Shown: positions 20,501 to 35,374 of the stretch, piece after piece | Position numbering within the stretch: the stretch's first letter is position 1 | How the letters are laid out: each line of letters begins with the position of its first letter | Origin: Mageeibacillus sp. UBA1257 | GTDB taxonomy: Bacteria; Bacillota; Clostridia; UBA1212; UBA1257 | Direction: 5' to 3' | DNA: 36,454 bases | Assembly: GCA_002308775.1 (NCBI GenBank) | Contig: DBVT01000122.1 | Location: 1 to 36,454, forward strand | The notes under the pieces: model-generated | What the model was told of the DNA's origin: nothing | Seen by the model: the letters and a program-made list of their open reading frames with translations, nothing else | Databases searched by the model: none | Program-made: the position numbers and the translations under genes

Positions 20501-22993
20501 ATGAAGAGACTATTTGCTGTTTTTATGGTTTTTTGCCTTGTATTTTGTATGCAGACACAGCCAACCGTTACCGCAACAAATAATGAGGAAGAAAACTTCA
20601 GTAGCGCACCTTGTGAAATTGCCGATGACATTGTATCAGAAATTGCAAGTGAAGATCAGAAAGAGATTTCCGATTCGGATAAGTTATTTGAATCGATCAG
20701 TAATGAGACGCATTTGCTCGATTACGTAGATGCAAAGCAGTTTGCAAGCAAGAAACATATTGCAAGAATAACGGAAAAAGAAGACCTTGATACGTACGTC
20801 TTTTTGAATGAAGACGGAACGAATACCATGTATTTGATGGCGGAAAAAGTAAAATATATTGCCGCTGACGGAAGTATTCATGAAAAAAATATAAAATTGA
20901 TTTCCCGAGACGGAAAATATATAACGAGTGACAATAACACGGACGTTTCACTTTCGAAAGACAGCTGTGAAACAGAAGTGATTTTAGATAACAGCAGTTT
21001 AAAAATTACAGTACCCGGAGCAGTATGCGAAGGAATATTTGAAGAAGACGGTAATACGGTTACGTATAAGGACGTATTCGGTGCAGGAATCGATGTCAGA
21101 TATACACCCACGTTATCGGGACTCAAGGAAGATATAATAATCGAAAGATATAACGGAATAAATGCATTTGAATTCAGGGCAGAGACTGATCTTTGCCTTT
21201 TTGAAGATGAATCAGGATACTATTTTGCGGAATATGAAACAGCCGGGCTGAAATTCAGAATCGGAAGAATAATTGCATATGACGCCGTAGGCAATATCTC
21301 TTTAGGCGTTCTTGAATATGAATTAACAGACGGAGGATATTTAATAAGGGTAACAGCGGACAATGAATTTCTTTCATCAGCCGATACCGTTTATCCTGTC
21401 ACCGTAGATCCGACTATCAACGTTTATGAAAGTACAGACGGCAGTTCGATTCAGGATGCCGCATTGTATTATATGGTCCCGGGAGCAAACTTAGGAAACA
21501 TGACTGTTAACCCTCTCGGAACAAAAAATACCAATACCGGACTCGGAAGAACAGCAATGAGACTTTCAGGACTTGAGAACAATACCGTCTTTTCCGGTCT
21601 TAACTTAAATGAAATCAAACGCGCAACGCTTTACGTTAAAGGAAACGGAACATACAGCCCTACGCAGATAGTTTGTTATAAAATGCTGGGAGAGCAGACG
21701 TGGGGAGAATACACCGTAACGTACAGTAACGTAGGGACTGTAGACGGTCCCAGCGGCAGCAGAGCGTATATGTCGGAGTCTTACTGGACCAGAATTGATT
21801 TAAAGACAATAATGCAGATGTGGAAAGCCTCTAATTACAACTCCTATTGTTTGCTGCTCACGGCTGTCGATGAAGCAAATACTTATGCGGAGTTTTGCTC
21901 ATCAAAGAACGGTACTACGTCATACAGACCGTACGTCACGATTGATTACGGAGATATTGTAATTGACAGGCTGTCATCGAGTTATAACGATCAAAGCATA
22001 TACAGCACGTCTCTTCAAAAACGGATGAATTGTTACGGATATGCGATACAGGTGTATACTGATGAGTTGGTTGATACGTATATAGTGCCCGGATATACAT
22101 TGCATTTAAATGAGGTATTGTATGACTATTATTTGCAGCAACCAGGTGAGTTTTCCACAACTCAAACCAATAACTTCGCGAGTCTTTTACTTACATATGG
22201 TGGGGCATATGCCAATGCGCCGTTTTCTGTGTATATTAATTTTGTTGAGTCAATGATGAAACGAGATTTTAGCAAATTACAATTAACAGATGGACTGGAA
22301 TGGGACATAGAAGATTCTTCAGCAAATGAAACCGTCCCTGAAGGATACAGAAAAATTGCTTTGGTTGTCGGGAATAATAACGGCACTAACGAAAATGATT
22401 ACCATTTTTACATGCGTCATGACGATGGGACCTGGAGCCATAAACGGGGCGATTATCCAAGGAGTGATAAATCAATAACAACAGATGTAAAAATAACGGA
22501 TGCAAATATTGATGTTGTTGCAAAAGAGGAATATTATGCAGGTGGAGAAATAAGATATTATTTGATAAAAAAATCTGCAATAGTCGATTACTATCATTCG
22601 AATCATACGAACAGTCCAGCTACATTCTATGACTACGTACCCGGAGGAAACAAGATAGAAAAAAGTTTTCCAATTAACGGAATGTATAATTCGGTGAAAA
22701 TTGATTATTATAATGATATTGACTTTTTCGTCTTTAAACCTTCAACGACAGGCAATTACGGTTTCAATACAGAATATACACTTGATGAAAACGGAAACAG
22801 TAGCAGCACACTTGACGTTAAATTGGCAATTTACGACAGTACGGGAACCCTTATGGCAAACAGTTCGAGTGCATACGGTGAAGCTTACGCCGGAGCGTGT
22901 TATCTAATTGCAAACAAAAACTATTTCATCAAATTCTGGACAGGGTCACGCCAAAAGTGCACGTCGAACCTGAGAATACAACAGTTGTACTAA
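20501..22993 (+). CDS. Secreted 830-aa multidomain protein: DNRLRE-like domain, unassigned Cys/His module, PPC-like C-terminal domain
   Basis: RBS AAGGAGG and signal peptide MKRLFAVFMVFCLVFCMQTQPTVTA. Residues ~300-490 (VTVDPTINVYESTDGSSIQDAALYY...GRTAMRLSGL...IKRATLYVKG) resemble a DNRLRE domain. Residues ~500-690 carry NCYGYA (Cys511) and DYHFYMRHDDGTWSHKRG (His635). The C-terminal ~100 aa carry the DIDFFVFKPSTTGNY motif of pre-peptidase C-terminal domains. Confidence 0.8.
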   Translation: MKRLFAVFMVFCLVFCMQTQPTVTATNNEEENFSSAPCEIADDIVSEIASEDQKEISDSDKLFESISNETHLLDYVDAKQFASKKHIARITEKEDLDTYVFLNEDGTNTMYLMAEKVKYIAADGSIHEKNIKLISRDGKYITSDNNTDVSLSKDSCETEVILDNSSLKITVPGAVCEGIFEEDGNTVTYKDVFGAGIDVRYTPTLSGLKEDIIIERYNGINAFEFRAETDLCLFEDESGYYFAEYETAGLKFRIGRIIAYDAVGNISLGVLEYELTDGGYLIRVTADNEFLSSADTVYPVTVDPTINVYESTDGSSIQDAALYYMVPGANLGNMTVNPLGTKNTNTGLGRTAMRLSGLENNTVFSGLNLNEIKRATLYVKGNGTYSPTQIVCYKMLGEQTWGEYTVTYSNVGTVDGPSGSRAYMSESYWTRIDLKTIMQMWKASNYNSYCLLLTAVDEANTYAEFCSSKNGTTSYRPYVTIDYGDIVIDRLSSSYNDQSIYSTSLQKRMNCYGYAIQVYTDELVDTYIVPGYTLHLNEVLYDYYLQQPGEFSTTQTNNFASLLLTYGGAYANAPFSVYINFVESMMKRDFSKLQLTDGLEWDIEDSSANETVPEGYRKIALVVGNNNGTNENDYHFYMRHDDGTWSHKRGDYPRSDKSITTDVKITDANIDVVAKEEYYAGGEIRYYLIKKSAIVDYYHSNHTNSPATFYDYVPGGNKIEKSFPINGMYNSVKIDYYNDIDFFVFKPSTTGNYGFNTEYTLDENGNSSSTLDVKLAIYDSTGTLMANSSSAYGEAYAGACYLIANKNYFIKFWTGSRQKCTSNLRIQQLY

Positions 22994-23046
22994 CTTAACT
23001 TTTGATTATTTTTTTGACAATTCATAAAAAAGGAAGGAGAAACATT

Positions 23047-23982
23047 ATGAACACAAAAAGAATCACAATTATTTCAATCTGCGTATTGGTTGCATGTTTT
23101 GTTATGGCAGGGATTTTTGCATTCGCAGTCGCAAGCAACGATCAGTTTTTCAATGAAACCTTACCGAGCGAGCAAAAAAAACAGGAAGAGCCCGATTTGC
23201 CGTCAAAAGAAAACGTGAAACCGCTTTCTGAAGCACCGCAATATATTCAGGATATGATAAATACGTATTTTATCGATGCAGACGGAAATCTGCTTACTTC
23301 TCTCAAAACGGATGACTATTACAAAGATTGGGACGGCTACTACGAAAAGGTTCTTCGTGCATGCAGAAAACAATGGGATAAACTTACAGAAATGCAGCAG
23401 CAAAGCTACATAGACGAGTACCTTTTTAATTATTACAGTGTTCCAGATGGAGATACAGGTCTGTTTCGTTACGATGAAGAAAATAAACCGGATATGACAG
23501 ATGAGGAGCTTCTCGAGCGTGTCATTCTGTTCTATGGCAAACTGGGATCATCTTACGTCGTCCGCATAAACAGAGTGATTAATGGAGAGTTAGAGAAATA
23601 TAAACCCAGACCTGATATTGAAAAAATCAGAGAGTGGTTTGCATATACAATTGAAAGAACAGATCCGCAGGACATGGAAGATTATTTTTACCTTCTGTAT
23701 TCATGTATTAACCTTTCTGCTTCAGTACCTGATTTCTGTTTAGGAAGCGGGATGCCATCTTCTATAATAGCACTTGATGATACGTTGACAAGGTTTTTGG
23801 TATGCGGCTATACAGGCAGACATCCTCTTTATTATGTATTTGATGAGACTTATGAACATCTTCATATTGAAGAACTTTGCCCCGAAGCAAATGCCTTTTT
23901 TAACTGGACTGATGAATCGGGAGATTATACGAAAGACGAATATACTGGATACGCGAAAGCCATGTATGAATGCTTTGGATAA
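23047..23982 (+). CDS. Hypothetical membrane-anchored protein (311 aa), partner of the 830-aa protein
   Basis: RBS AGGAGA 8 nt before ATG 23047; I reject the track's TTG at 23002. One N-terminal TM helix (ITIISICVLVACFVMAGIFAFAV) is followed by a ~270-aa acidic, Tyr/Asp-rich exported domain. I recognised no family. Confidence 0.7.
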   Translation: MNTKRITIISICVLVACFVMAGIFAFAVASNDQFFNETLPSEQKKQEEPDLPSKENVKPLSEAPQYIQDMINTYFIDADGNLLTSLKTDDYYKDWDGYYEKVLRACRKQWDKLTEMQQQSYIDEYLFNYYSVPDGDTGLFRYDEENKPDMTDEELLERVILFYGKLGSSYVVRINRVINGELEKYKPRPDIEKIREWFAYTIERTDPQDMEDYFYLLYSCINLSASVPDFCLGSGMPSSIIALDDTLTRFLVCGYTGRHPLYYVFDETYEHLHIEELCPEANAFFNWTDESGDYTKDEYTGYAKAMYECFG

Positions 23983-24778: not shown

Positions 24779-24827
24779 TTTTCTGCTTTTGTTCCGCAAC
24801 AAAAACAAAGGCTGGACCTTACGGAAA

Positions 24828-25619
24828 ATGACGGAAAAACTTATTGAAAAATACGCCGAAATGAGGATCAAACCCTACAGAAAGGACAGTGAATACTCCT
24901 ACACCTGTGGGGTTTTTCCGACTATCGAATTATTAAAAAGGAAACCGCAGTATGTGATACGCGTGGCGATGTCTTCGGAGAGCGATAAGAGCCGCGGAAG
25001 CGATATCGTCAGGGAGCTTGCGAAGGAGAACGGGATACCCGTGGTTACTGATGACAAAACCATCGAGCGTATCGCCGCGAAGGACAACTGTCTCTGCGCC
25101 GGGGTCTTTTTAAAATACGAAGAAGAGATCAGACAGGACACGGATCACATAGTCCTCGTGAACCCTTCGGATATGGGAAATATAGGGACGATAATAAGGA
25201 CATCGTCAGCCTTCGGTTTTGAAGATCTCGCCGTTATCACTCCCGCGTGCGATATATTCGATCCTAAGGCCGTACGCGCCTCAATGGGAGCCCTTTTCGG
25301 CATCAGAGTAAAATTATTCGCTTCGTTCGAAGAGTACCTTAAAACGCCCCACAGAGGCTCACAGAGACATATCTATCCTTTCATGTTAAAAGGGGAAAAA
25401 CTTACGAGGCAGATCGCTGACGAAGCTGTGGCGATGAGCAAAGAAGGGGAGCATTTTACGCTCGTGTTCGGAAACGAATCGAGAGGGCTGGACGATTCAT
25501 ATCTCGATATCGGAAGGCCGCTGCTGATACCCATCAGGGACACTGTGGATTCGCTCAACCTGCCTGTCGCGGTATCGATCGGAGAATATATGTTTTCAGC
25601 GAAGGGAGAGAAAAAATGA
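24828..25619 (+). CDS. TrmH/SpoU (SPOUT) family RNA 2'-O-methyltransferase
   Basis: SPOUT motifs VNPSDMGNIGTIIRTSSAFG, LVFGNESRGL and IPIRDTVDSLNLPVAVSIGEY. I place the start at ATG 24828; the track's TTG at 24789 is possible. Confidence 0.8.
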   Translation: MTEKLIEKYAEMRIKPYRKDSEYSYTCGVFPTIELLKRKPQYVIRVAMSSESDKSRGSDIVRELAKENGIPVVTDDKTIERIAAKDNCLCAGVFLKYEEEIRQDTDHIVLVNPSDMGNIGTIIRTSSAFGFEDLAVITPACDIFDPKAVRASMGALFGIRVKLFASFEEYLKTPHRGSQRHIYPFMLKGEKLTRQIADEAVAMSKEGEHFTLVFGNESRGLDDSYLDIGRPLLIPIRDTVDSLNLPVAVSIGEYMFSAKGEKK

Positions 25620-26464
25620 CAGACACGCTCGCAAAGAAAATTCAGGACAAGTCTTCGCTCCTGGGGATATCTTCCGAAGAAGTCTCGCTTGCGAAGGCGC
25701 TTTTTGTAAACAGAAAATACGATTACAGGGGAGAAACAAGGCTGTTCATATGCGAAGGACTGTGGGCAGCTAAAAAGCTCGCGGAATCGAAGATCACAGT
25801 CACGCATTTCCTTTTCGATCCGGAGAAGGTGACGGACGAAGAGGAAGCGGACGTTTCGCTGATGCTCGATTACGCGGAGGAGTCTTTTACGGTATCGGCA
25901 AAGGTGTGCGCAAAGATCAGCGACAGGGACGGAGCGGATCACTGCTTCATAGTTGCCAGGCTTCCGGAATACAAACTCGAAGATATCAGGCTGTCTGACG
26001 AAGAGATTTCGATAGTTCTCGACGGACAGGAGCAGCCGGGCAACGTTGGCGCTATACTTAGGTCGCTGGACGGCGCCGGAGGATCGTTTGCCGTGATGAC
26101 CAACAGGCGCGTAAAACTCACCCACAGCAGGCTGGTCAGAGCAAGTCTTGGAGCCGTTTTTACCATGAAAGTCGTTGAAGCAGACGCGGACGAACTCGCG
26201 AAATGGCTTGTTGACAATCATTTCAAAATAGTCGTGACGGATCTCAAAGCGACATATCCGTACTACGAGGCAGACTACAGCGGAAGGGTCGCGATAGTCG
26301 CCGGAAACGAATACAACGGCGTGTCCCCTCTTTGGAACACACTTCCCGGAGCGACACCCGTCATCATCCCGATGCTCGGAAAATGTGAATCCCTGAATGT
26401 CGGTTTTGCTTCAACTTTAGTCGCTTACGAAGCAGCCGTTCAGAAGATGCGAAAGAGGAGATGA
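25616..26464 (+). CDS. Second TrmH/SpoU (SPOUT) family RNA methyltransferase
   Basis: ATGA overlap with the upstream paralogue. Motifs QEQPGNVGAILRSLDGAG, AIVAGNEYNGVS and IPMLGKCESLNVGFASTLVAYE. Confidence 0.8.
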   Translation: MTDTLAKKIQDKSSLLGISSEEVSLAKALFVNRKYDYRGETRLFICEGLWAAKKLAESKITVTHFLFDPEKVTDEEEADVSLMLDYAEESFTVSAKVCAKISDRDGADHCFIVARLPEYKLEDIRLSDEEISIVLDGQEQPGNVGAILRSLDGAGGSFAVMTNRRVKLTHSRLVRASLGAVFTMKVVEADADELAKWLVDNHFKIVVTDLKATYPYYEADYSGRVAIVAGNEYNGVSPLWNTLPGATPVIIPMLGKCESLNVGFASTLVAYEAAVQKMRKRR

Positions 26465-26468
26465 TTAT

Positions 26469-28343
26469 ATGAAAAAGAGGCTTTTTACCGTTTTTATGAT
26501 CTTTTTTTTGATGTTTTGCATGATCTTGCCTTCATTCGGAGAGTTTAGCGTAACATACGGGTCGATCGAGGGAAACAACGTCCTGAGAGGCCAGACGATC
26601 GCGATCGCCGAGGTAAAAAACGAAGGAGACATCGATAAGATAATGGAGGGAAGAGTTCCGACCGTGGTCATCCTGCACATCGATTCTTCTTTGAACGTCA
26701 CAGCAGGCGCAAAAGGAAAAGCCCTTACGGACGTGGACGCTGTCTTGAAAAAACTCGATCTTAAGATCATTCCGTGTTTTTACATAAGCGACAAAAAAAC
26801 AGCTGACGCGATAGGCGACTACATCGAGACGAACAGGCTGAGGGACTGCTACCTGATGTCTTCCGATCCGGATCTGGTAAAAAAAGCCAGAGAATATTAT
26901 TCGGCGGCAGGCGTGATCGACTACAGAAAAGCATCAAAAAAAGAACTTGAAAAACTGAATGTAAGAAACACGACTAACTCCAATCTCGCGAAGGTCGCCC
27001 TGCTTCCGGAGGATTATCCTTACGAGGATATCGACTGGCTGCAGAAGAGGATAATAAAAGTCTGGACGGTTTCGGACGGAACGGATGTTTCGCTCTATGA
27101 CAGGATAATATCGGGAGCGGACGGAGTTTTGTGCGCGGATGAGGAAAAATTTTACGATACGATAGCGAAATTCGAGACGGATACTCTGCTGAGAGATCCT
27201 GTCATAATAGGGCACAGGGGTCAGCCTGCGACGAATCACGAAAACACTCTCTCGAGCGCGATCGCGGCTTATGAAGCGGGTGCGGACGCGATCGAATGCG
27301 ACGTGTATTTCTCAAAAGACAAAGAGATAGTCATCATGCACGACTCAGATATCTCGAGGACGACGGACGGAACAGGTGAGATCTCGCGTTATACTGTCGA
27401 AGAACTTAAAAAGTTCAAAATGGACACGAATCCGTCTTTTGAGGACGATACGATACCTACATTGAGAGAATATTTCGAATATTTCAAAGACAAGGATATT
27501 ATTCAGGTCATCGAGATAAAAGACGGCAACGCGAAGATCGTGGACGCTCTGAAGGAACTGATCGACGAATATAATATGTCCTCGAAAGTGAATTTTATAT
27601 CTTTCAACGCAAACCAGATGAAACTCACCAGACAGAAAATGCCCGAGATATCCTCAGGCCTTTTAGTCGGTGTAACTGCGGCTCCCGATCTTTCGAAATA
27701 CGGCACTAAAACGACGATGTTCAACCAGCTGGGACCTTCGAATCTATCCTATCATCCCAGCGTAGGCGCGATGACCGACGAGTTCATAAACTGGACGAAG
27801 GCCAGGAGCATACCGGTGTATGCCTGGACGATAGACGACTCGGCAACGTACGCGAGAGGATATCTCAATTTCGATTCCGTCACGACGAATTACACGCTCA
27901 AAACGTCAAATGTCGCGAGAGATATAGAGATCAGAGACATTTCCACGTTAAGATCTGACGGCGAAGGCAATTTTACCGTAGAGGGCGTTATGATCACGAG
28001 AAAGGGAGAAGAAAAGCAGGTAATATGCAATTGCGTGCCTCTCAGTGACTCTTCGTTATACACTGTTTCGAAGGACGGAAAGGTCGAACCGGCTGCGGAG
28101 GAAGAGGTCTATTTCGTTCCGTATTACAGATTCGGCCTGAACGAAGACGAGAAAAAAGAGATCGTCAGTTTTACGATGTACGCGAAGCCTTTTTCTCCGA
28201 ACGCCAAGGCCGTGGAAGAAAAGAGCGTAAAATTCGACAGAAAGAAACTGGACATTTTACTCGTGGCAGCAGTGATTCTGTGCGCGGCATTTTTATCGAC
28301 ATATTTTGTTATGAGGAAGAGAAGAAAGAAAAAAGTTGAATAA
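26469..28343 (+). CDS. Exported glycerophosphodiester phosphodiesterase (GDPD) family protein with C-terminal TM anchor
   Basis: Signal peptide MKKRLFTVFMIFFLMFCM. GDPD core VIIGHRGQPATNHENTLSSAIAAYEAGADAIECDVYFSKDKEIVIMHDSDISRTTDGTG. C-terminal helix ILLVAAVILCAAFLSTYFV followed by RKRRKKK. Confidence 0.85.
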   Translation: MKKRLFTVFMIFFLMFCMILPSFGEFSVTYGSIEGNNVLRGQTIAIAEVKNEGDIDKIMEGRVPTVVILHIDSSLNVTAGAKGKALTDVDAVLKKLDLKIIPCFYISDKKTADAIGDYIETNRLRDCYLMSSDPDLVKKAREYYSAAGVIDYRKASKKELEKLNVRNTTNSNLAKVALLPEDYPYEDIDWLQKRIIKVWTVSDGTDVSLYDRIISGADGVLCADEEKFYDTIAKFETDTLLRDPVIIGHRGQPATNHENTLSSAIAAYEAGADAIECDVYFSKDKEIVIMHDSDISRTTDGTGEISRYTVEELKKFKMDTNPSFEDDTIPTLREYFEYFKDKDIIQVIEIKDGNAKIVDALKELIDEYNMSSKVNFISFNANQMKLTRQKMPEISSGLLVGVTAAPDLSKYGTKTTMFNQLGPSNLSYHPSVGAMTDEFINWTKARSIPVYAWTIDDSATYARGYLNFDSVTTNYTLKTSNVARDIEIRDISTLRSDGEGNFTVEGVMITRKGEEKQVICNCVPLSDSSLYTVSKDGKVEPAAEEEVYFVPYYRFGLNEDEKKEIVSFTMYAKPFSPNAKAVEEKSVKFDRKKLDILLVAAVILCAAFLSTYFVMRKRRKKKVE

Positions 28344-30922: not shown

Positions 30923-31933
30923 TTATTTTTCTGTATCTGTATTTTCTTTTTCCTGCGTCTGGTGCGGCGTTCTCTTAAAGCCCTTGACGATCTTTTCCGT
31001 ATGCTTTTTATCGGGGACGATCAGGTTTATCGCACCGGGAAGGACCTCTATGGTCGCGGGGATATTCTCAGCCTTTTCACCGTCGTAGTCCATCGGGAAT
31101 GTATTGAAATCCTTCGAAAGGTCGGGAGAGACAGTGATCTTTTTGCCCGTAAGCATGAGGATGCGGGGATCGTCGACATGCATGCCTGTGGAGATCTTAG
31201 TGAGCAGCGGCATGACGTCGAGAGCGCCTACTTTCCTGACAAGAAAGAGATTGAACAGTCCGTCATTAATATACGCGCCGGGAGCGATCTTCGTAAAACC
31301 TCCGGCAGAAGTCGAATTCGATATCTCGAGCATAAAAGTATCCTCGTGGTAAATATCTCCGTCGCAGTCGATGATCAGAGGAGAAGTTTCCAAAGTCAGG
31401 CCGGTGAGATTTTTCGCGCCTTCAACAAGATAGGCGAGTCGTCCGAAGGCGTTTTTCTGCGTCACAGGCACTGTGTGAGCGACTGAAGACAAAAGCCCTC
31501 CTGCGACGACATTGAGAAAATAAGTCGCTTTATTCCTGTCTTTTGTATAAAACATTCCCACGTCGACAGGTTCTACTCTGAAGCTTTTTATCATCGAAAC
31601 GACTGACGCAGAATCCTTCGGGAGGCTGAGGGAAGCGGCGAAATCGTTCGTCGTTCCGAAGGGGAGAATGGCGAGCGGGATCTTTGAACCGCTTTTTACG
31701 AGACCGTTCACGACTTCGTTGGCTGTTCCGTCGCCTCCGACAGAAACGACAAAGTCGCACTCCTCAGGATCAAGGGATGCGGCGATATTCGTGGCGTCGT
31801 ATTTTCCCTGGGTCACGGAGATATTCAGGGAGGTCACCACATTTTCGGCGAGCAGCCTGTTGATGGTAAGATAGACAATATCTCTTGTGGCAGACAAACC
31901 CGATTGCGGGTTGATTATAAAGCATCCTTTCAA
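30923..31933 (-). CDS. Diacylglycerol/lipid kinase family protein (YegS/BmrU-like)
   Basis: FIINPQSG and the VSVGGDGTANEVVNGL ATP-binding motif. TTG start with a GGGGTGA RBS. It has a Lys/Glu/Thr-rich C-terminal tail. Confidence 0.85.
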   Translation of the reverse strand: MKGCFIINPQSGLSATRDIVYLTINRLLAENVVTSLNISVTQGKYDATNIAASLDPEECDFVVSVGGDGTANEVVNGLVKSGSKIPLAILPFGTTNDFAASLSLPKDSASVVSMIKSFRVEPVDVGMFYTKDRNKATYFLNVVAGGLLSSVAHTVPVTQKNAFGRLAYLVEGAKNLTGLTLETSPLIIDCDGDIYHEDTFMLEISNSTSAGGFTKIAPGAYINDGLFNLFLVRKVGALDVMPLLTKISTGMHVDDPRILMLTGKKITVSPDLSKDFNTFPMDYDGEKAENIPATIEVLPGAINLIVPDKKHTEKIVKGFKRTPHQTQEKENTDTEK

Positions 31934-31991: not shown

Positions 31992-33785
31992 TCAGAACAG
32001 CCTGCGAACGACCGTACCCGGATCGGAAATCGGTCTCGCTTCAAGCCTTGTCTTTCCGTTTTTCGCTCCCGTAGAATAGAAGCAGTATATCATACTGTCT
32101 GATACGTAAAGATCTGAGATGAACATTTTACCCTCCGGATCGTATGAGAGGAGAAGCTCCGCCGGGCCGCCTTTTTCGGACACCCTGTAGATGCCGTAGT
32201 CAGACATCCCTTTGTCAGTCGATACGTATCCCTCGTAATAGATATATCCGTTTTTGACGTAAAACGCCCCTGTCCCGGGCTCTATCCCTTCGACTTTCGA
32301 GGGCTTCTTACTTTCCAGATCTGTCAGATCGAAATAGTAGATCGCAAGTCCGTTGAGCTCTTTGTACGTAAAATACATCCTGTCTCCCTCGCACTGCAGA
32401 GTATACGCCTCGTCGATAAATATCGTATCTATGCTGGGCTCGCCGTTGTACTCTGTGAGATAGTGAATGCCTTTCCATGCGCCTGCGGAGAAAAATACGG
32501 TGCCTTTGTCAGATATTTCGATATCGTATCTCTCGAGATTCAGGTCCGTGGAGCAGTCGTAGAGGAGCACAGGCTCGCCTCCGTCAAGGCTGATATAATA
32601 TATTCCGTCTCGTCCCGAATAATACAGTTTGTCTCCGTATACGGTCAGATTCGAAGCGGCCGTATCGTAAAACAGTTTCGCATTTTCGCCGTTCATGTCA
32701 GCCGCATAGATCGAACCGTCTTCCGTGTTTCTGTAGTAAAAATTCTTCCCGTCTGTCGCGAAATCCTTCGAATTAATGCCTTTTGCCTGTCCTGCCTCTG
32801 AAATGACGGAGCCGTTAACGTCCGCGATATATACGTCGTCATTTTCAGAAACGTTCTGGAAATAGAACCTTCCGTTTGACTCGAACATGCGCACTTTTGT
32901 GTCGAACTGGGGAGATCCGTAAACGTCGTTGTAGGCGATCTTTTCCGTCTTTTTGTCCCTGCTTAAAACGATCGCCGCGGTTATTCCCGCCGCGATCAGA
33001 ACTATCGCAGCGATGACAGCGATCAATATGATGATCCGGGATCTTTTCTTCTTTTTGCCCTTTACAGAGGACTTTTTTTCGACTGTGCCGTCTTCGCAGC
33101 ATGCGCCTTCTTCGCTGCCGTTTTCACAGTTTCCGGTTTCGCGCTCATCTTCGCCGTATGCGTATTCGTCGCTTCCGAGATCGAGCAGTTCATGGCTTGT
33201 ATATGCGAGAAGACCGGGCTCATCTGAATTTATCAGATCCCAGACGTCCGGTACGCACTCCGGAAAGTTGTCCTTTATCGTCGCGGGTATATCAAGTTCT
33301 TTGTAAATGCCGTCGATGTTCTCGAGCTGCCTGATCGCGCTCCTGTATTCGCCTTTAAGATCCCCCGTCCTGTACCAGAGAAAAGACGCGAGATCCCTGT
33401 CGGAAAAACCAGTGAGATTGGAGAGGATGAGTATCTTGCCCCTGTCGCCGTCGAGCGAAGTTATCGAATCGATGAGGAGTTTTGAAAGATTGTCGAGAAT
33501 GTGCTTTTCGCCCGTTTTTTTAATATCTTTATCGAGCAGGGCGTTCAGTGAAAGGTTTCTGGCGATCTCGAGCAGCCACTTTTCGCCGTCCATATCGGTC
33601 GTGTAGGAATAAGCGTATCTCCAGACCCTTTTGTATGTTTCGACCATGACCTCGCGGGCGAGCGATCTATCCTTGACATGCGTGATCGCGACAGCGTAAA
33701 CTCTCGACTTTGTCAGCCTGTAAAGCTCCTTGTAATCATTCCTGTTGCCTCTTGAAATCCCAGTGAAAAGATAGTCCGAGTTCAT
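31992..33785 (-). CDS. ECF-type sigma factor domain fused to a TM helix and a DUF5050-like beta-propeller
   Basis: Residues ~15-85 fit sigma-70 region 2 (YKELYRLTKSRVYAVAI...LAREVMVETYKRVW...WLLEIARNLSLNAL). Residues ~110-157 fit region 4 (RGKILILSNLTGFSDRDLASFL...GDLKGEYRSAIRQL). An acidic Cys-containing linker and a KKKKRSR stop-transfer cluster follow. The TM helix is IIILIAVIAAIVLIAAGITAAIVL (nt 32964-33035). About 310 exported residues carry repeated YY/FY-G-D-iYY propeller-like blades (KLYYSGRDGIYYISLDGGEPVLLY). Confidence 0.75.
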   Translation of the reverse strand: MNSDYLFTGISRGNRNDYKELYRLTKSRVYAVAITHVKDRSLAREVMVETYKRVWRYAYSYTTDMDGEKWLLEIARNLSLNALLDKDIKKTGEKHILDNLSKLLIDSITSLDGDRGKILILSNLTGFSDRDLASFLWYRTGDLKGEYRSAIRQLENIDGIYKELDIPATIKDNFPECVPDVWDLINSDEPGLLAYTSHELLDLGSDEYAYGEDERETGNCENGSEEGACCEDGTVEKKSSVKGKKKKRSRIIILIAVIAAIVLIAAGITAAIVLSRDKKTEKIAYNDVYGSPQFDTKVRMFESNGRFYFQNVSENDDVYIADVNGSVISEAGQAKGINSKDFATDGKNFYYRNTEDGSIYAADMNGENAKLFYDTAASNLTVYGDKLYYSGRDGIYYISLDGGEPVLLYDCSTDLNLERYDIEISDKGTVFFSAGAWKGIHYLTEYNGEPSIDTIFIDEAYTLQCEGDRMYFTYKELNGLAIYYFDLTDLESKKPSKVEGIEPGTGAFYVKNGYIYYEGYVSTDKGMSDYGIYRVSEKGGPAELLLSYDPEGKMFISDLYVSDSMIYCFYSTGAKNGKTRLEARPISDPGTVVRRLF

Positions 33786-33859
33786 CTCATCCGCTCCCGT
33801 AAAAAGGTCACATATAATCAGCTCTCAAGCGTAAAAAACGCCCGAAACAGCATGTCAGA

Positions 33860-33888
33860 ATTATATACCAACTTCGTTGAAATAGCAA
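33860..33888 (-). promoter_or_regulatory. Sigma-A type promoter for the sigma-fusion gene
   Basis: On the minus strand: TTGCTA (33888-33883), a 17-nt spacer, then TATAAT (33865-33860). It lies about 75 nt upstream of ATG 33785, with a GGGAG RBS. Confidence 0.5.
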
Positions 33889-34006: not shown

Positions 34007-35374
34007 ATGAAAAAAGTGTTTAAGGTATTACTATTCACTCTCGCAGTGGCGCTTGTTATATCTGCTTTCTGCGCGCTGGGAGCGTTTGCCGACGAGACCG
34101 GTATAATCTCGATGGACAGCGACACGATAACACCCGTAGCTGCTCTCAAAGTTTCATTCGATATTCCCGAGGATCACGTGATCGATGAAAACGACTGGGT
34201 CGGAATCTACAGCGCGGACGCGGACATCGAAAGTATCGGGCCCGGTTCCGGCATAGGTATCTGGTGTTATCTCGGAACGAATACGTCTGACATGGGAGAA
34301 TACACAGACAGGCACGTTGAGATCACTTTCGACTACACGACGAGTTATGCGGGCAACTGGCCTCTCGCTCCCGGAGAATATCAGGTCCTTCTGTTTTACG
34401 AGGGAGAATATGCAGTCGATGCTCATCACAGCTTCACGGTAGTTGACAAGATCATTTCGATGGACACGAGCATGGTGACGTCCGGCGACCCGATGACCGT
34501 AAAAATCAATCTCCCCGAAGACCACGCGTTGGCGGGAGACGACTGGATCGGTATTTACAAAAAAGAGATCGACAACAATAATGTGCAAAGCGGTTCCGGC
34601 ATGGGCATATGGTGCTACCTCGGATCGAACACACAGTCTTACGGAACTCCGGAAAACCGCCAGTTCGAGCTCAAATTCGATGAAGAACTCAGCGTCACCG
34701 GCAACTGGCCGCTCGCTCCCGGAGACTACAAGTTCCTTCTTTTCTACAATGATTCGTACAAGGTCGCAGACTATTTTGAATTCACTGTAAAGGACAAGGC
34801 AGCCGAGGACAAGAAAGTCGTCTATATGGACAAGAACGAATTTTACCCGGGGGAAACGCTCGAGGTAAAGATCGATCTGCCGGAGGGGCACAGCCTTGAA
34901 AGCAAAGACTGGATAGGCATTTACAGCGCGGAAGTTGAAAATAATAACGTTTATGCCGGAGCAGGCATCGGAATGTGGTGCTACATCGGATCGAACACTC
35001 AGTCATTCGAACCGATGGAGAGCAGTCATCTGTTGGTCGAAGTGGACGAAGCTATAGCGACAGTGCCGGAAAACTGGCCGCTTGCGCCGGGAGAGTGGAA
35101 GGTATTTCTTTTCTACAATGATTCGTACACGGTCGCAGACTATTTCCAATTCACTGTAGTTGAAAAGCCTGCGACTCCTACGCCCGAGCCTACGGCGACT
35201 CCGGAGGCCACAGAAGCTCCGACAGATGATCCCGCGGACGCTCCGACTGCTGCTCCCACCGAAAAACCTGCAGAGAAAAAGGGCTGCGGTTCTGCAGTCG
35301 TATCATCTGCCCTGGTTGCCGCATCCGTTTTACTCGGAACGGCATTAATAGTGAGAAAGAAAGATAATGAATAA
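34007..35374 (+). CDS. Exported surface protein with three tandem ~116-aa modules, a Pro/Thr-rich stalk and a C-terminal membrane anchor
   Basis: Signal peptide MKKVFKVLLFTLAVALVISAFCALGAFA. Three modules share DW[VI]GIY, G[IM]G[IM]WCY[LI]G[ST]NT, NWPLAPG[ED][YW] and LLFY/FLFY...F[TE]FTV. A PATPTPEPTATPEATEAP stalk follows. The C-terminus is KKGCGS plus a hydrophobic helix plus RKKDNE. Confidence 0.85.
   Translation: MKKVFKVLLFTLAVALVISAFCALGAFADETGIISMDSDTITPVAALKVSFDIPEDHVIDENDWVGIYSADADIESIGPGSGIGIWCYLGTNTSDMGEYTDRHVEITFDYTTSYAGNWPLAPGEYQVLLFYEGEYAVDAHHSFTVVDKIISMDTSMVTSGDPMTVKINLPEDHALAGDDWIGIYKKEIDNNNVQSGSGMGIWCYLGSNTQSYGTPENRQFELKFDEELSVTGNWPLAPGDYKFLLFYNDSYKVADYFEFTVKDKAAEDKKVVYMDKNEFYPGETLEVKIDLPEGHSLESKDWIGIYSAEVENNNVYAGAGIGMWCYIGSNTQSFEPMESSHLLVEVDEAIATVPENWPLAPGEWKVFLFYNDSYTVADYFQFTVVEKPATPTPEPTATPEATEAPTDDPADAPTAAPTEKPAEKKGCGSAVVSSALVAASVLLGTALIVRKKDNE
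34103..35167 (+). repeat. Three in-frame tandem coding repeats (about 348 nt each)
   Basis: The modules cover aa 33-148, 149-264 and 271-387. Modules 2 and 3 keep a near-identical DNA stretch (TTCTTTTCTACAATGATTCGTACA[A/C]GGTCGCAGACTATTT..AATTCACTGTA) at about 34736-34790 and 35107-35158. Confidence 0.85.

What the first reader, a model, noticed from the sequence alone, without database searches (positions are those of the whole stretch)
31992..33785. One-polypeptide membrane-tethered ECF-like sigma factor with an extracellular DUF5050-type propeller
The N-terminal ~157 residues align position by position with ECF sigma regions 2 and 4. Examples are the ...VY..A......D..LA.EV..ET....W...........WL..IA.N pattern and the ILILSNLTGFSDRDLASFL...G.LK...R.AI..L HTH. 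There is no stop codon. The chain continues through an acidic Cys-bearing linker (CENGSEEGACCEDG) and a KKKKRSR cluster. A single TM helix and about 310 exported residues of DUF5050-like blades follow. Canonical ECF signalling uses a separate anti-sigma factor. Here sensor, membrane anchor and sigma domain are fused. Activity would need either proteolytic release or transcription at the membrane. The usual acidic DAED-type patch of region 2 is replaced by LAREV, so the domain may be divergent. Together with the adjacent target-like genes, this is my other best candidate for an undescribed system.
Basis: partly seen in the sequence, partly recalled or inferred. Interest (0 to 1): 0.72.

Follow-up and report, generated by a model that had tools for sequence, protein, structure and literature searches.

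The report
Sigma factor fused to its membrane sensor
This is a real gene from an uncultured gut Clostridia bacterium that joins a divergent ECF-type sigma factor, an anti-sigma-like segment, one membrane helix and an outside beta-propeller in a single protein; it is a new, lineage-restricted variant of the already known sigma/anti-sigma hybrid design, not an undescribed kind of system.

Summary
ORF 31992..33785 (-) encodes 597 aa: an ECF-like sigma2+sigma4 head (1-157), a conserved juxtamembrane segment (158-203), a disordered acidic then basic linker, one N-in TM helix (251-275) and a DUF5050 beta-propeller (297-597). It is not a frameshift artefact. Four independent assemblies carry the same 596-597 aa ORF, and about 25 homologues at 27-35% identity share the whole architecture.

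- Single-chain sigma/anti-sigma hybrids are already described (IutY; ECF48/52/53).
- Canonical ECF-TM-DUF5050 fusions already sit in public databases.
- The Cys-bearing linker is not conserved.
- The neighbouring "target-like" gene is not conserved.

The conserved partner is a DAG-kinase-type lipid kinase gene 8-70 nt downstream (12/12 loci). A cardiolipin synthase gene often lies upstream.

New here: the juxtamembrane PDVW segment matches the N-termini of the membrane proteins encoded next to the nearest free-standing ECF sigma genes. This supports an origin by sigma/anti-sigma gene fusion.

Most likely mechanism (inferred): the propeller senses an envelope cue, and proteolysis then releases the sigma head. 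Whether this divergent head still works as a sigma is untested.

Verdict: new variant of a known kind, moderate interest.

The parts
33860..33888 (-). Sigma-A-type promoter-like site upstream of the gene (TTGCTA, 17 nt, TATAAT, with TGG just upstream giving an extended -10)
   Evidence: The consensus scan scores it 10 of 12. A comparable TGGTATAAT/TATACT-type -10 lies 40-70 nt upstream of the start codon in most related loci. No ECF-type (AAC...CGT) motif was found.
33794..33798 (-). Ribosome-binding site GGGAG, 8 nt before the ATG
   Evidence: Read directly from the sequence.
33516..33785 (-). ECF sigma region 2 (residues 1-90)
   Evidence: NCBIfam ECF models hit at E down to 6e-11 and Pfam Sigma70_r2 at E 1.5e-3. 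hhalign against ECFs gives 99.9%. It is the most conserved part of the family at 45% pairwise identity. A43, E49, R53, W70 and N81 are invariant or nearly so, and N77 is kept in 65% of the family.
33456..33515 (-). Short sigma2-sigma4 linker (residues 91-110) with the family-specific DN.S.LL motif
   Evidence: N99 and S101 are nearly invariant. The linker is about 15 residues shorter than in the nearest ECFs.
33315..33455 (-). ECF sigma region 4 helix-turn-helix (residues 111-157)
   Evidence: It aligns to sigma4 of SigL and other ECF structures and to 105 ECFs. Family identity is 40%. E146 is invariant. S149 stands where RpoE has R176.
33177..33314 (-). Conserved cytoplasmic juxtamembrane segment (residues 158-203) with the PDVW..I and SHE.L.L motifs. 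Putative in-cis anti-sigma segment.
   Evidence: P179 is invariant, and D180 and S197 nearly so. AF2 pLDDT is about 90. A family HMM of this segment hits the N-termini of membrane proteins encoded next to free-standing ECF sigma genes: L027 E 2e-4, P0080 0.3, L026 0.4. These are the top three non-family hits among 778 sequences. There is no Pfam match.
33036..33176 (-). Disordered acidic then basic tether (residues 204-250), including CENGSEEGACCEDG and KKKKRSR
   Evidence: AF2 pLDDT is 36-43 and family identity 19%. The Cys residues vary among near-identical copies. The basic cluster just before the TM helix is kept in all members.
32961..33035 (-). Single transmembrane helix (residues 251-275), N-in/C-out
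   Evidence: Hydropathy peaks at 3.15 and the K/R cluster is on the N-terminal side. AF2 predicts a helix at 242-275.
32898..32960 (-). Extracytoplasmic linker (residues 276-296)
   Evidence: AF2 pLDDT is below 50 for residues 275-292.
31995..32897 (-). Extracytoplasmic DUF5050 (PF16472, LRP1/YWTD-like) beta-propeller of about 6-7 blades (residues 297-597)
   Evidence: Pfam E 1.4e-9, above the cut-off, and 17 of 20 family members hit, best E 6.9e-29. AF2 pLDDT is about 90. Foldseek finds LRP6 propellers and 3s25, the EUBREC_1955 7-bladed propeller, with target TM-score 0.61.
30923..31933 (-). Co-oriented downstream gene for a DAG-kinase/YegS-type lipid kinase, probably in the same operon
   Evidence: Pfam DAGK_cat E 6.6e-28 and YegS_C E 3e-24. 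It lies directly downstream on the same strand in 12 of 12 loci, with gaps of 8-70 nt.

Best explanation
The gene encodes a single-chain ECF sigma/anti-sigma hybrid that acts as a one-protein transmembrane signalling device.

Shown:
- A divergent but complete ECF sigma head (sigma2 plus sigma4, residues 1-157).
- Directly after it, a conserved roughly 45-residue segment (PDVW motif). It resembles the cytoplasmic N-termini of the membrane proteins encoded immediately after the nearest free-standing ECF sigma genes.
- Then a disordered tether, one N-in TM helix, and an extracytoplasmic DUF5050 beta-propeller.
- The gene has a housekeeping-type promoter and is followed at 8-70 nt by a lipid kinase gene in every relative.

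Inferred:
- The protein arose by fusion of a sigma gene with its downstream anti-sigma gene.
- At rest, the sigma head is held inactive at the membrane by the in-cis anti-sigma-like segment and the tether.
- A cue sensed by the propeller outside the cell triggers regulated proteolysis: a site-1 cut, then a site-2 intramembrane protease, then cytoplasmic trimming. This frees the sigma head to bind core RNA polymerase, as shown for IutY and proposed for ECF52.
- The constant pairing with a DAG-kinase-type lipid kinase, and often a cardiolipin synthase, suggests an output linked to membrane or envelope homeostasis. No target promoter was identified.
For: Architecture and reality of the fusion.

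Sigma head:
- Homology covers both regions: hhalign 99.9%, E 3.6e-32, residues 2-159. The eight comparison ECFs I scanned pass the Pfam cut-offs.
- Sigma2 and sigma4 are the most conserved parts of the protein (45% and 40%, against 27% for the propeller).
- The region 2.2 core residues A43, D/E45, E49, Y/F51 and R53, plus W70 and N77, are kept.
- The net charge of sigma4 in the family (+4.0) equals that of free-standing ECFs (+3.4).

Anti-sigma-like segment:
- The juxtamembrane segment is modelled with pLDDT about 90 next to the sigma head, while the tether is disordered.
- Genes directly after the two closest free-standing sigmas (P0031, P0033), and P0080 after another ECF sigma gene, encode single-pass membrane proteins. 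Their N-termini carry SVPDVWQNINEK, ETPDVWEKIKS and EVDVWDKIVNS.
- These three are the top non-family hits of the segment HMM, the best at E 2e-4.

DUF5050 as a sensor module:
- It recurs outside the membrane behind Ser/Thr kinases, zinc ribbons and canonical ECF sigmas.
- A split sigma plus TM-DUF5050 pair exists.

Precedent for release by proteolysis: IutY, and ECF52 SCO4117 (PMC8999054).
Against: Nothing here shows sigma activity, cleavage or release.

Signs that the head is divergent:
- Pfam Sigma70_r2 is below its cut-off and r4_2 is undetected in the window protein. Only 9 and 3 of 20 family members hit these models at E <= 0.05.
- The Q of the region 2.2 'QE' pair is V/A/I.
- The basic cluster after region 2.4 is lost.
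- The sigma2 net charge is -1.3, against +2.0 in ECFs.
- The recognition helix is less basic.
- The window protein has Ser where RpoE R176 contacts the -35 G. The closest free-standing ECF has the same 'SAIRQL', and only 45% of the comparison ECFs have Arg there.

Other weaknesses:
- No ECF-type autoregulated promoter or shared bipartite motif was found near the locus.
- The similarity of the anti-sigma-like segment is short and statistically weak for two of the three comparators. It matches no curated anti-sigma domain.
- I could not inspect model contacts or PAE, so docking of residues 160-200 onto sigma2/sigma4 is inferred from confidence values only.
Confidence: 0.55

Rival explanations
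1. Pseudo-sigma: the N-terminal domain descends from an ECF sigma but no longer initiates transcription. It would serve as a conserved cytoplasmic protein-interaction module of a membrane receptor. It might bind or sequester another regulator, in the way the sigma-like domain of PhyR binds NepR, or act on the co-encoded lipid enzymes.
For: - Curated sigma models are missed or sub-threshold.
- The Q of QE and the basic patch after region 2.4 are lost, the DAED glutamate is reversed to R/K, and there is an invariant E146 where 62% of related ECFs have K/R.
- Sigma2 and the recognition helix are significantly less basic than in ECFs.
- The window protein has S149 at the RpoE R176 position, and its sigma4 net charge is -1.
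- The promoter is of housekeeping type, with no sign of autoregulation.
- The gene is fixed in an operon with a lipid kinase in a core chromosomal region.
Against: - The region 2.2 core-binding signature, W70 and N77 are retained.
- The Arg at the RpoE R176 position is kept in 89% of the family.
- The family's sigma4 charge equals that of real ECFs.
- The unusual recognition helix is shared with free-standing ECFs that pass the Pfam cut-offs.
- An in-cis anti-sigma-like segment only makes sense if the head has an activity to restrain.
- There is no receiver domain or other PhyR-type partner domain.
Confidence: 0.25
2. Tethered sigma: the head works as a sigma factor while still anchored. It would recruit RNA polymerase to promoters near the membrane without proteolytic release, like the membrane-bound one-component regulators ToxR and CadC. 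The propeller would control a conformational change rather than cleavage.
For: - A disordered cytoplasmic tether of about 47 residues could give the head reach.
- Expression appears constitutive from a sigma-A-type promoter.
- No protease gene is conserved in the neighbourhood.
Against: - The only experimentally studied sigma/anti-sigma hybrid, IutY, is activated by proteolysis, and the same is proposed for ECF52.
- Holding a whole RNA polymerase holoenzyme at the membrane through sigma has no precedent that I found.
- Site-2 proteases are usually encoded elsewhere in the genome, so their absence from the locus says little.
Confidence: 0.1
3. Artefact: two adjacent genes (sigma and anti-sigma) were joined by a sequencing or assembly frameshift or by a lost stop codon in this one assembly.
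For: Split sigma plus TM-DUF5050 arrangements do exist. Frameshifted versions of related genes are seen in other contigs (L014, L018).
Against: - The same uninterrupted 596-597 aa ORF occurs in four independent assemblies.
- About 25 homologues at 27-35% identity from different species have the same collinear architecture and conserved junction residues.
Confidence: 0.02

Closest known systems
IutY of Pseudomonas putida (ECF243, FecI/FecR-type sigma/anti-sigma hybrid)
   Same: - One polypeptide has an N-terminal ECF sigma, a cytoplasmic anti-sigma part, one TM helix and an extracytoplasmic sensing domain.
- It is not autoregulated.
- Sequential proteolysis (Prc, RseP) releases the sigma (PMC8999054; PMC5411451).
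   Different: - IutY is from a Gram-negative cell-surface signalling system, with a FecR-type anti-sigma and a TonB-dependent transducer partner.
- Here the organism is a Clostridia bacterium and no FecR-type or other curated anti-sigma domain is detectable.
- The sensor here is a DUF5050 propeller, and the nearest sigma relatives are Firmicutes-type free-standing ECFs.
ECF48/ECF52/ECF53 sigma factors of Actinobacteria (for example SCO4117 of Streptomyces coelicolor)
   Same: An ECF sigma head is fused to a C-terminal extension with transmembrane helices and an extracytoplasmic domain. Activation is proposed to be by proteolysis of the extension.
   Different: - Those carry a zinc-finger (ZAS-like) domain, one or two TM helices, a Pro-rich region and a carbohydrate-binding domain.
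- Here there is no zinc finger, the Cys residues are not conserved, the cytoplasmic segment is a PDVW-type motif, and the outer domain is a beta-propeller.
Canonical ECF sigma-TM-DUF5050 fusion proteins in metagenomes (P0162, P0164, P0170, P0211, P0222, P0262)
   Same: Five of the six have the same domain order and nearly the same size (586-607 aa; P0162 is 850 aa): ECF sigma, linker of about 90 aa, one TM helix, DUF5050 repeats. P0001 aligns collinearly with P0164.
   Different: - Their sigma heads pass the Pfam cut-offs and carry the standard VQETF and GTVKSRL motifs.
- They lack the PDVW segment.
- They sit in different, non-conserved contexts.
- In a rough neighbour-joining tree they form a clade separate from the window family, and the two fused groups are further from each other than either is from free-standing ECFs. 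This suggests independent fusions.
- I found no paper describing them.
Ordinary two-gene ECF sigma / single-pass anti-sigma pairs of Clostridia with PDVW-type anti-sigma N-termini (P0033 with L027 4057-5115; P0031 with L026 920-1612; the L014 sigma with P0080)
   Same: These are the closest sigma sequences. The same short cytoplasmic motif lies ahead of the TM helix. One of them has a DUF5050 ectodomain.
   Different: They are two separate genes. The ectodomains vary (DUF4367, serpin, DUF5050). In the window family the stop codon between the two genes is gone and the sigma head has diverged.
PhyR sigma-like domain (alphaproteobacterial general stress response)
   Same: Both have an ECF-derived sigma2-sigma4 domain with altered sigma-defining residues. 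This is the precedent for a non-transcribing sigma-like module (otherwise established knowledge).
   Different: PhyR is soluble, is fused to a receiver domain, and works by partner switching with NepR. None of these features is present here.

Membership tests
ECF (group IV) sigma-70 family | A sigma region 2 domain homologous to ECF sigma2 | tested here: met
   NCBIfam ECF models hit residues 4-91 down to E 6e-11. hhalign against 105 ECFs gives 99.9%, E 3.6e-32. PDB SigK 4nqw matches at E 3.4e-4.
ECF (group IV) sigma-70 family | A sigma region 4 helix-turn-helix domain | tested here: met
   phmmer and hhalign alignments to full-length ECFs run through residues 155-159. Alignments to the 6dxo and SigL 6dv9 structures cover residues 13-154 and 30-154.
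ECF (group IV) sigma-70 family | Passing the curated Pfam cut-offs for Sigma70_r2 and Sigma70_r4_2 | tested here: not met
   r2 scores 18.7 bits against a cut-off of 24, and r4_2 is not reported. In the family, r2 hits 9 of 20 and r4_2 hits 3 of 20 at E <= 0.05. NCBI names the protein only 'DUF5050 domain-containing protein'.
ECF (group IV) sigma-70 family | Only sigma2 and sigma4, with no regions 1.1 or 3 | tested here: met
   The head is 157 residues and aligns end to end with ECFs of 170-200 aa.
ECF (group IV) sigma-70 family | Conserved Arg of the region 4.2 recognition helix that reads the -35 G (RpoE R176) | tested here: inconclusive
   It is Ser149 in the window protein and Arg in 89% of the family. 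PMC1540707 calls it conserved across the group IV sigmas it compared. However, only 45% of the nearest free-standing ECFs have Arg, and P0031 has the same SAIRQL.
ECF (group IV) sigma-70 family | Binds core RNA polymerase and directs promoter-specific initiation | not testable with these tools
   This needs biochemistry. No candidate promoter motif was found near the locus.
Single-chain sigma/anti-sigma hybrid ECFs (IutY type; ECF48/52/53 type) | Sigma head, TM helix or helices, and an extracytoplasmic domain in one polypeptide | tested here: met
   The architecture is conserved across the family.
Single-chain sigma/anti-sigma hybrid ECFs (IutY type; ECF48/52/53 type) | A recognisable anti-sigma domain (FecR N-terminal or zinc-finger ZAS) between sigma4 and the membrane | tested here: not met
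   No Pfam family hits the 158-250 segment of four members even at E <= 10. The Cys residues are not conserved. Instead there is a PDVW segment that resembles the N-termini of putative anti-sigmas of related ECFs, best at E 2e-4.
Single-chain sigma/anti-sigma hybrid ECFs (IutY type; ECF48/52/53 type) | Phylogenetic placement of the sigma head in ECF243 or ECF48/52/53 | not tested
   No ECF-group HMMs were available. The nearest relatives are free-standing ECFs with PDVW-type downstream partners, so membership of those specific groups is unlikely.
Single-chain sigma/anti-sigma hybrid ECFs (IutY type; ECF48/52/53 type) | Activation by regulated proteolysis of the extension | not testable with these tools
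   This needs Western blots and protease mutants.
DUF5050 / PF16472 (LRP1-like beta-propeller) | Pfam match above the gathering score and a beta-propeller fold | tested here: met
   38 bits against a cut-off of 27, E 1.4e-9, and 17 of 20 family members hit. The AF2 model has pLDDT about 90. Foldseek finds LRP6 YWTD propellers and 3s25.
PhyR-type sigma-like (pseudo-sigma) domain proteins | A sigma-like domain fused to a receiver domain, with a NepR-type partner | tested here: not met
   There is no Response_reg or other cytoplasmic domain besides the sigma head. No NepR-like gene is conserved nearby.

The most novel reading that the evidence does not exclude
The head of this lineage-restricted family may no longer be an ordinary releasable sigma factor. 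It could be a membrane-anchored pseudo-sigma, or a sigma that acts while tethered, wired to membrane-lipid homeostasis through its fixed operon with a DAG-kinase-type lipid kinase and, in half the loci, a cardiolipin synthase. In that case the extracellular propeller would report envelope state to lipid metabolism or to RNA polymerase at the membrane, without a classical released-sigma regulon.
Probability: 0.2. Interest if true: 0.7.

Novelty: new variant of a known kind. Interest (0 to 1): 0.4.

Why it matters
If the model holds, this extends single-chain sigma/anti-sigma signalling to gut and rumen Clostridia. So far it has been studied only in Pseudomonas (IutY) and Streptomyces (ECF52).

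It would also give DUF5050 propellers a concrete role as extracytoplasmic sensor modules. They are abundant in gut Firmicutes, they have no assigned function, and here they also appear behind Ser/Thr kinases and zinc ribbons.

The split and fused versions of the same PDVW-type sigma/anti-sigma pair offer a natural experiment on how such fusions arise, and a compact one-protein sensor-regulator for engineering.

Current pipelines label the protein only 'DUF5050 domain-containing protein', so its regulatory head goes unannotated.

The tight operon with a lipid kinase hints at an envelope or lipid output that could be tested.

Tried and rejected
- **Word-indexed homology search.** Searching with the whole protein and with the family alignment returned only the query itself. 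The exhaustive search was needed.
- **The search for related loci with the 20-sequence alignment.** A 6-sequence alignment worked.
- **Single-sequence AlphaFold.** The model was useless, with pLDDT 37.
- **Foldseek on the good model.** The propeller dominated the results, and no sigma or anti-sigma structures appeared in the top 50. I could not access coordinates or PAE, so docking of residues 160-200 on the sigma head is unverified.
- **Pfam on the 158-250 segment.** No anti-sigma family was found.
- **Search for a shared bipartite (5-mer, 14-18 nt, 4-mer) promoter motif.** I searched upstream of genes in 8 independent locus groups. It found only ATTTT-N15-AAAA, which is compositional. The upstream regions show sigma-A-like extended -10 elements.
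- **The SKICH-repeat neighbour as a conserved target.** Rejected, because it has no homologue in any related locus.
- **The Cys-rich linker as a redox or metal site.** Rejected, because the Cys residues vary within 98%-identical copies and are absent from relatives.
- **E146 as proof of lost DNA binding.** Rejected. The equivalent RpoE residue R173 is never mentioned in the paper on the sigmaE4/-35 structure, which names the contact residues.
- **S149 as proof of degeneracy.** Weakened, because the closest free-standing ECF has the same residue.
- **Genomic contexts.** P0142 has no sigma neighbour, and P0063 was not on record.
- **Supplements of the ECF classification paper.** They are not held, so I could not check whether a DUF5050-extension group is listed there.
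Full report

Yes. The window has a 597-codon ORF at 31992..33785 on the minus strand. It starts at ATG 33785, and a GGGAG ribosome-binding site lies 8 nt upstream.

Pfam finds DUF5050/PF16472 (now also called LRP1-like beta-propeller) at residues 300-539, E 1.4e-9, above its cut-off. It finds Sigma70_r2 at residues 21-86 only below the cut-off (18.7 against 24 bits), and it does not find Sigma70_r4_2. NCBIfam ECF sigma models hit residues 4-91 with E down to 6e-11, and some run on to 154-155.

A hydropathy scan shows a single hydrophobic stretch at 251-275. The KGKKKKRSR cluster lies on its N-terminal side, so the head is cytoplasmic and the C-terminal 320 residues are outside.

**2. Is the fusion genuine?**

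- The 90% cluster holds six sequences from different assemblies (NCBI, ENA, Logan). Four are full length at 596-597 aa and 98-99% identical.
- An exhaustive HMMER search of 1.84 billion representatives found about 20 further representatives of 536-610 aa. They align to the query from end to end at 30-35% identity. The list then drops to free-standing ECF sigmas of 170-200 aa, which align to query residues ~4-157.
- Eleven loci from species-representative genomes carry the whole ORF, and a twelfth (L005) is cut at the contig end. All are uncultured gut or rumen Clostridia/Oscillospiraceae/Ruminococcaceae MAGs.

A frameshift artefact is therefore excluded.

**3. What is the N-terminal domain?**

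- Profile-profile comparison of the family N-terminus with 105 of those free-standing proteins gives probability 99.9%, E 3.6e-32, over residues 2-159. This covers sigma2, the linker and sigma4.
- Eight of the comparison proteins were checked, and all pass the Pfam cut-offs for Sigma70_r2 and r4_2.
- Sequence search of the PDB finds ECF sigmas only: SigK 4nqw, 6dxo and SigL 6dv9.
- Within the family, sigma2 (45% mean pairwise identity) and sigma4 (40%) are the best conserved parts. The propeller stands at 27% and the tether at 19%.

I compared the family column by column with the 105 ECFs and with E. coli RpoE. I had typed the RpoE sequence from memory, and it proved identical to 1OR7 chain A. 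The comparison shows these residues retained:
- the A and the D/E of the 'DAED' patch;
- the invariant E of 'QE';
- Y/F51, R53, W70 and N77;
- the Arg equivalent to RpoE R176, in 89% of the family.

It also shows consistent departures:
- the DAED glutamate is R/K;
- the Q of QE is V/A/I;
- the basic cluster after region 2.4 is replaced by H/D/K/A;
- position 146 is an invariant Glu, where 62% of the ECFs have K/R.

Sigma2 is less basic than in ECFs (-1.3 against +2.0, p = 7e-9). The recognition helix is also less basic (2.3 against 4.1). Sigma4 as a whole is not (4.0 against 3.4).

The window protein itself has Ser149 at the R176 position, the residue that reads the -35 G in the sigmaE4/DNA structure (PMC1540707). 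Its sigma4 net charge is -1. This is weaker evidence than it looks. Only 45% of the related ECFs have Arg there, and the closest free-standing ECF (P0031) has the same 'SAIRQL'. R173, the RpoE equivalent of E146, is never mentioned in that paper, which names the DNA-contact residues.

My conclusion is that the head is a complete, strongly constrained but divergent ECF sigma domain. Sequence alone cannot settle whether it is still active.

**4.

Residues 158-203 are conserved across the family: P179 is invariant, D180 and S197 are nearly so, and the motifs are PD.W..I and SHE.L.L. With the family alignment, AlphaFold models residues 1-200 at pLDDT about 90, and this includes 160-200. Residues 202-250 and 275-292 are disordered, the TM helix is clear, and the propeller is confident (mean pLDDT 82).

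I then looked at what lies next to the nearest free-standing sigma genes.
- P0033 is followed after 22 nt by a single-pass membrane protein that begins MSKINEDNILNKIKESIDSETPDVWEKIKS and ends in DUF4367.
- P0031 is followed by an overlapping gene for a single-pass protein with ...GLSFSVPDVWQNINEK... and an outside serpin domain.
- P0080 is a 377-aa protein with ...NLEVDVWDKIVNS..., a TM helix and DUF5050. It lies directly after an ECF sigma gene in four independent contigs.

An HMM built from the family's 158-203 segment ranks exactly these three proteins as its best non-family hits among 778 sequences. Each hit falls in the protein's N-terminal 40 residues (E 2e-4, 0.3 and 0.4). The statistics are modest, but position, order and context all agree. 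I read the segment as the counterpart of the cytoplasmic N-terminus of the cognate anti-sigma factor, and the window protein as a sigma gene fused in frame to its downstream anti-sigma gene. The segment matches no curated anti-sigma family.

**5. The outer domain**

The model's strands form six to seven four-stranded blades. Foldseek finds LRP6-type YWTD propellers, and also 3s25, a '7-bladed beta-propeller-like protein' from Eubacterium rectale, with target TM-score 0.61.

DUF5050 recurs as an extracytoplasmic module behind several cytoplasmic heads:
- Ser/Thr protein kinases (P0121 and many others);
- zinc ribbons (P0098, P0145);
- canonical ECF sigmas.

This fits a ligand- or envelope-sensing role. 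Its ligand is unknown.

**6. Context**

The divergently transcribed gene at 34007..35374 encodes an exported protein with three SKICH-like repeats and a C-terminal anchor. It has no homologue in any related locus, so it is not a conserved partner.

These neighbours are conserved:
- a DAGK_cat/YegS_C lipid kinase gene lies directly downstream on the same strand in 12 of 12 loci, 8-70 nt after the stop codon;
- a cardiolipin synthase gene (PLDc_N plus two PLD domains) lies directly upstream in 6 of 12;
- a metallophosphoesterase gene and uvrC lie alongside.

The window is a core chromosomal region, with ribosomal proteins L1 and L10, uvrC and rRNA methylases.

Upstream of the fusion gene, most loci and the window have a sigma-A-like extended -10 element (TGGTATAAT or TATACT). 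The window also has a TTGCTA -35 at 17 nt. I saw no AAC...CGT-type ECF promoter, and a search for any shared bipartite motif in the loci found nothing. The gene therefore appears to be constitutively expressed and co-transcribed with the lipid kinase. Its targets remain unknown.

**7. Mechanism**

Best explanation (confidence about 0.55): this is a one-protein transmembrane signalling device of the sigma/anti-sigma hybrid type.
- The sigma head is made tethered and is restrained by the in-cis PDVW segment.
- The propeller senses an extracytoplasmic cue.
- Regulated proteolysis then frees the head.

Only the domain anatomy, the homology and the conservation are shown. The inhibition, the cleavage and the sigma activity are inferred by analogy with IutY, which is experimentally activated by Prc and RseP, and with ECF52 SCO4117 (PMC8999054).

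Rivals:
- a pseudo-sigma that has lost transcription initiation (0.25), supported by the departures listed in section 3;
- a sigma that works while still tethered (0.1);
- an assembly artefact (0.02, effectively excluded).

**8. Comparison with what is known, and novelty**

ECF sigmas with fused membrane-spanning anti-sigma-like extensions are an established category: 19 ECF groups have C-terminal extensions, and ECF48/52/53 and IutY are membrane-spanning. The same domain order with DUF5050 also already exists in databases. P0162, P0164, P0170, P0211, P0222 and P0262 (586-850 aa) carry precomputed Sigma70_r2, r4, ECF and DUF5050 hits, and JGI names P0211 a sigma-70 family factor. P0001 aligns collinearly but weakly with P0164.

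In a rough neighbour-joining tree without bootstrap, the window family (25 of 25) and the canonical fusions (6 of 6) form separate clades. They are further from each other than either is from free-standing ECFs. This suggests that the fusion arose more than once.

I found no paper on DUF5050-type sigma fusions. I could not consult the supplementary group tables of the ECF classification paper.

The window protein fails two membership tests. It does not reach the Pfam sigma cut-offs, and it has no curated anti-sigma domain. So I file it as working like a sigma/anti-sigma hybrid, not as a member of ECF243 or ECF52.

Verdict: a new variant of a known kind. It is small (about 20 clusters at 50% identity among 1.84 billion representatives), lineage-restricted, unannotated as a regulator, and has an unusually divergent head. 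Interest is moderate (0.4). The design is not surprising to a specialist. The points worth follow-up are the divergent head, the traceable split-to-fused history and the fixed lipid-gene operon.

Noticed in passing
window 34007..35374 (+): Divergently transcribed 455-aa protein with a signal peptide, three tandem repeats of about 125 aa that hit the eukaryote-typical SKICH domain (E 1.1e-11, 3 stretches), a Pro/Thr/Ala-rich stalk and a C-terminal TM anchor. It has no homologue in the 12 related loci. It is an unusual surface protein and is unrelated to the sigma fusion by conservation.
   Followed up: partly
window 20501..23982 (+): Low-GC stretch (0.35-0.42 against about 0.47-0.50 in the flanks). 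It holds two large ORFs of 830 aa and 326 aa with no Pfam match at E <= 1e-4. It lies just after a GT2/GtrA glycosyltransferase gene. It may be a horizontally acquired surface-polysaccharide or surface-protein island.
   Followed up: no
L014:3424-4000 (same gene calls in L015-L017): The ECF sigma gene upstream of the TM-DUF5050 protein P0080 has sigma2 in one frame and a good sigma4 helix-turn-helix in another. In four independent assemblies it is called as a sigma2-only product of 140-147 aa. This could be a recurrent frameshift, a pseudogene or programmed frameshifting. I read the frames in L014 only.
   Followed up: partly
L018:1-2666: A canonical ECF-TM-DUF5050 fusion (P0078) in which the sigma2 part lies in a different frame from sigma4-TM-DUF5050, overlapping by 4 nt. 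This is probably a frameshifted copy of the P0164-type fusion.
   Followed up: partly
L026:920-1612: The putative anti-sigma partner of the free-standing ECF sigma P0031 carries an extracytoplasmic serpin domain (Pfam Serpin, E 5.5e-18) behind a PDVW-type N-terminus and one TM helix. A serpin as the sensor or decoy domain of an anti-sigma factor looks unusual. The contig ends inside the gene.
   Followed up: partly
proteins P0121, P0157, P0185, P0203 and others; P0098, P0145, P0212 (no window coordinates): DUF5050 propellers are repeatedly fused behind Hanks-type Ser/Thr kinases and behind N-terminal zinc ribbons in Clostridia. This suggests that DUF5050 is a general extracytoplasmic sensor module, comparable in role to PASTA domains.
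   Followed up: partly
L002, L004, L006, L007, L010, L013 (gene directly upstream of the fusion); window 26469..28343: Membrane-lipid genes cluster around the fusion. A cardiolipin synthase lies upstream in 6 of 12 loci and a DAG-kinase-type lipid kinase lies downstream in all. In the window, a 624-aa glycerophosphodiester phosphodiesterase gene sits next to uvrC.
   Followed up: partly
window 24789..25619 and 25616..26464 (+): Two adjacent SpoU-family RNA methyltransferase paralogues whose reading frames overlap by 4 nt.
   Followed up: no
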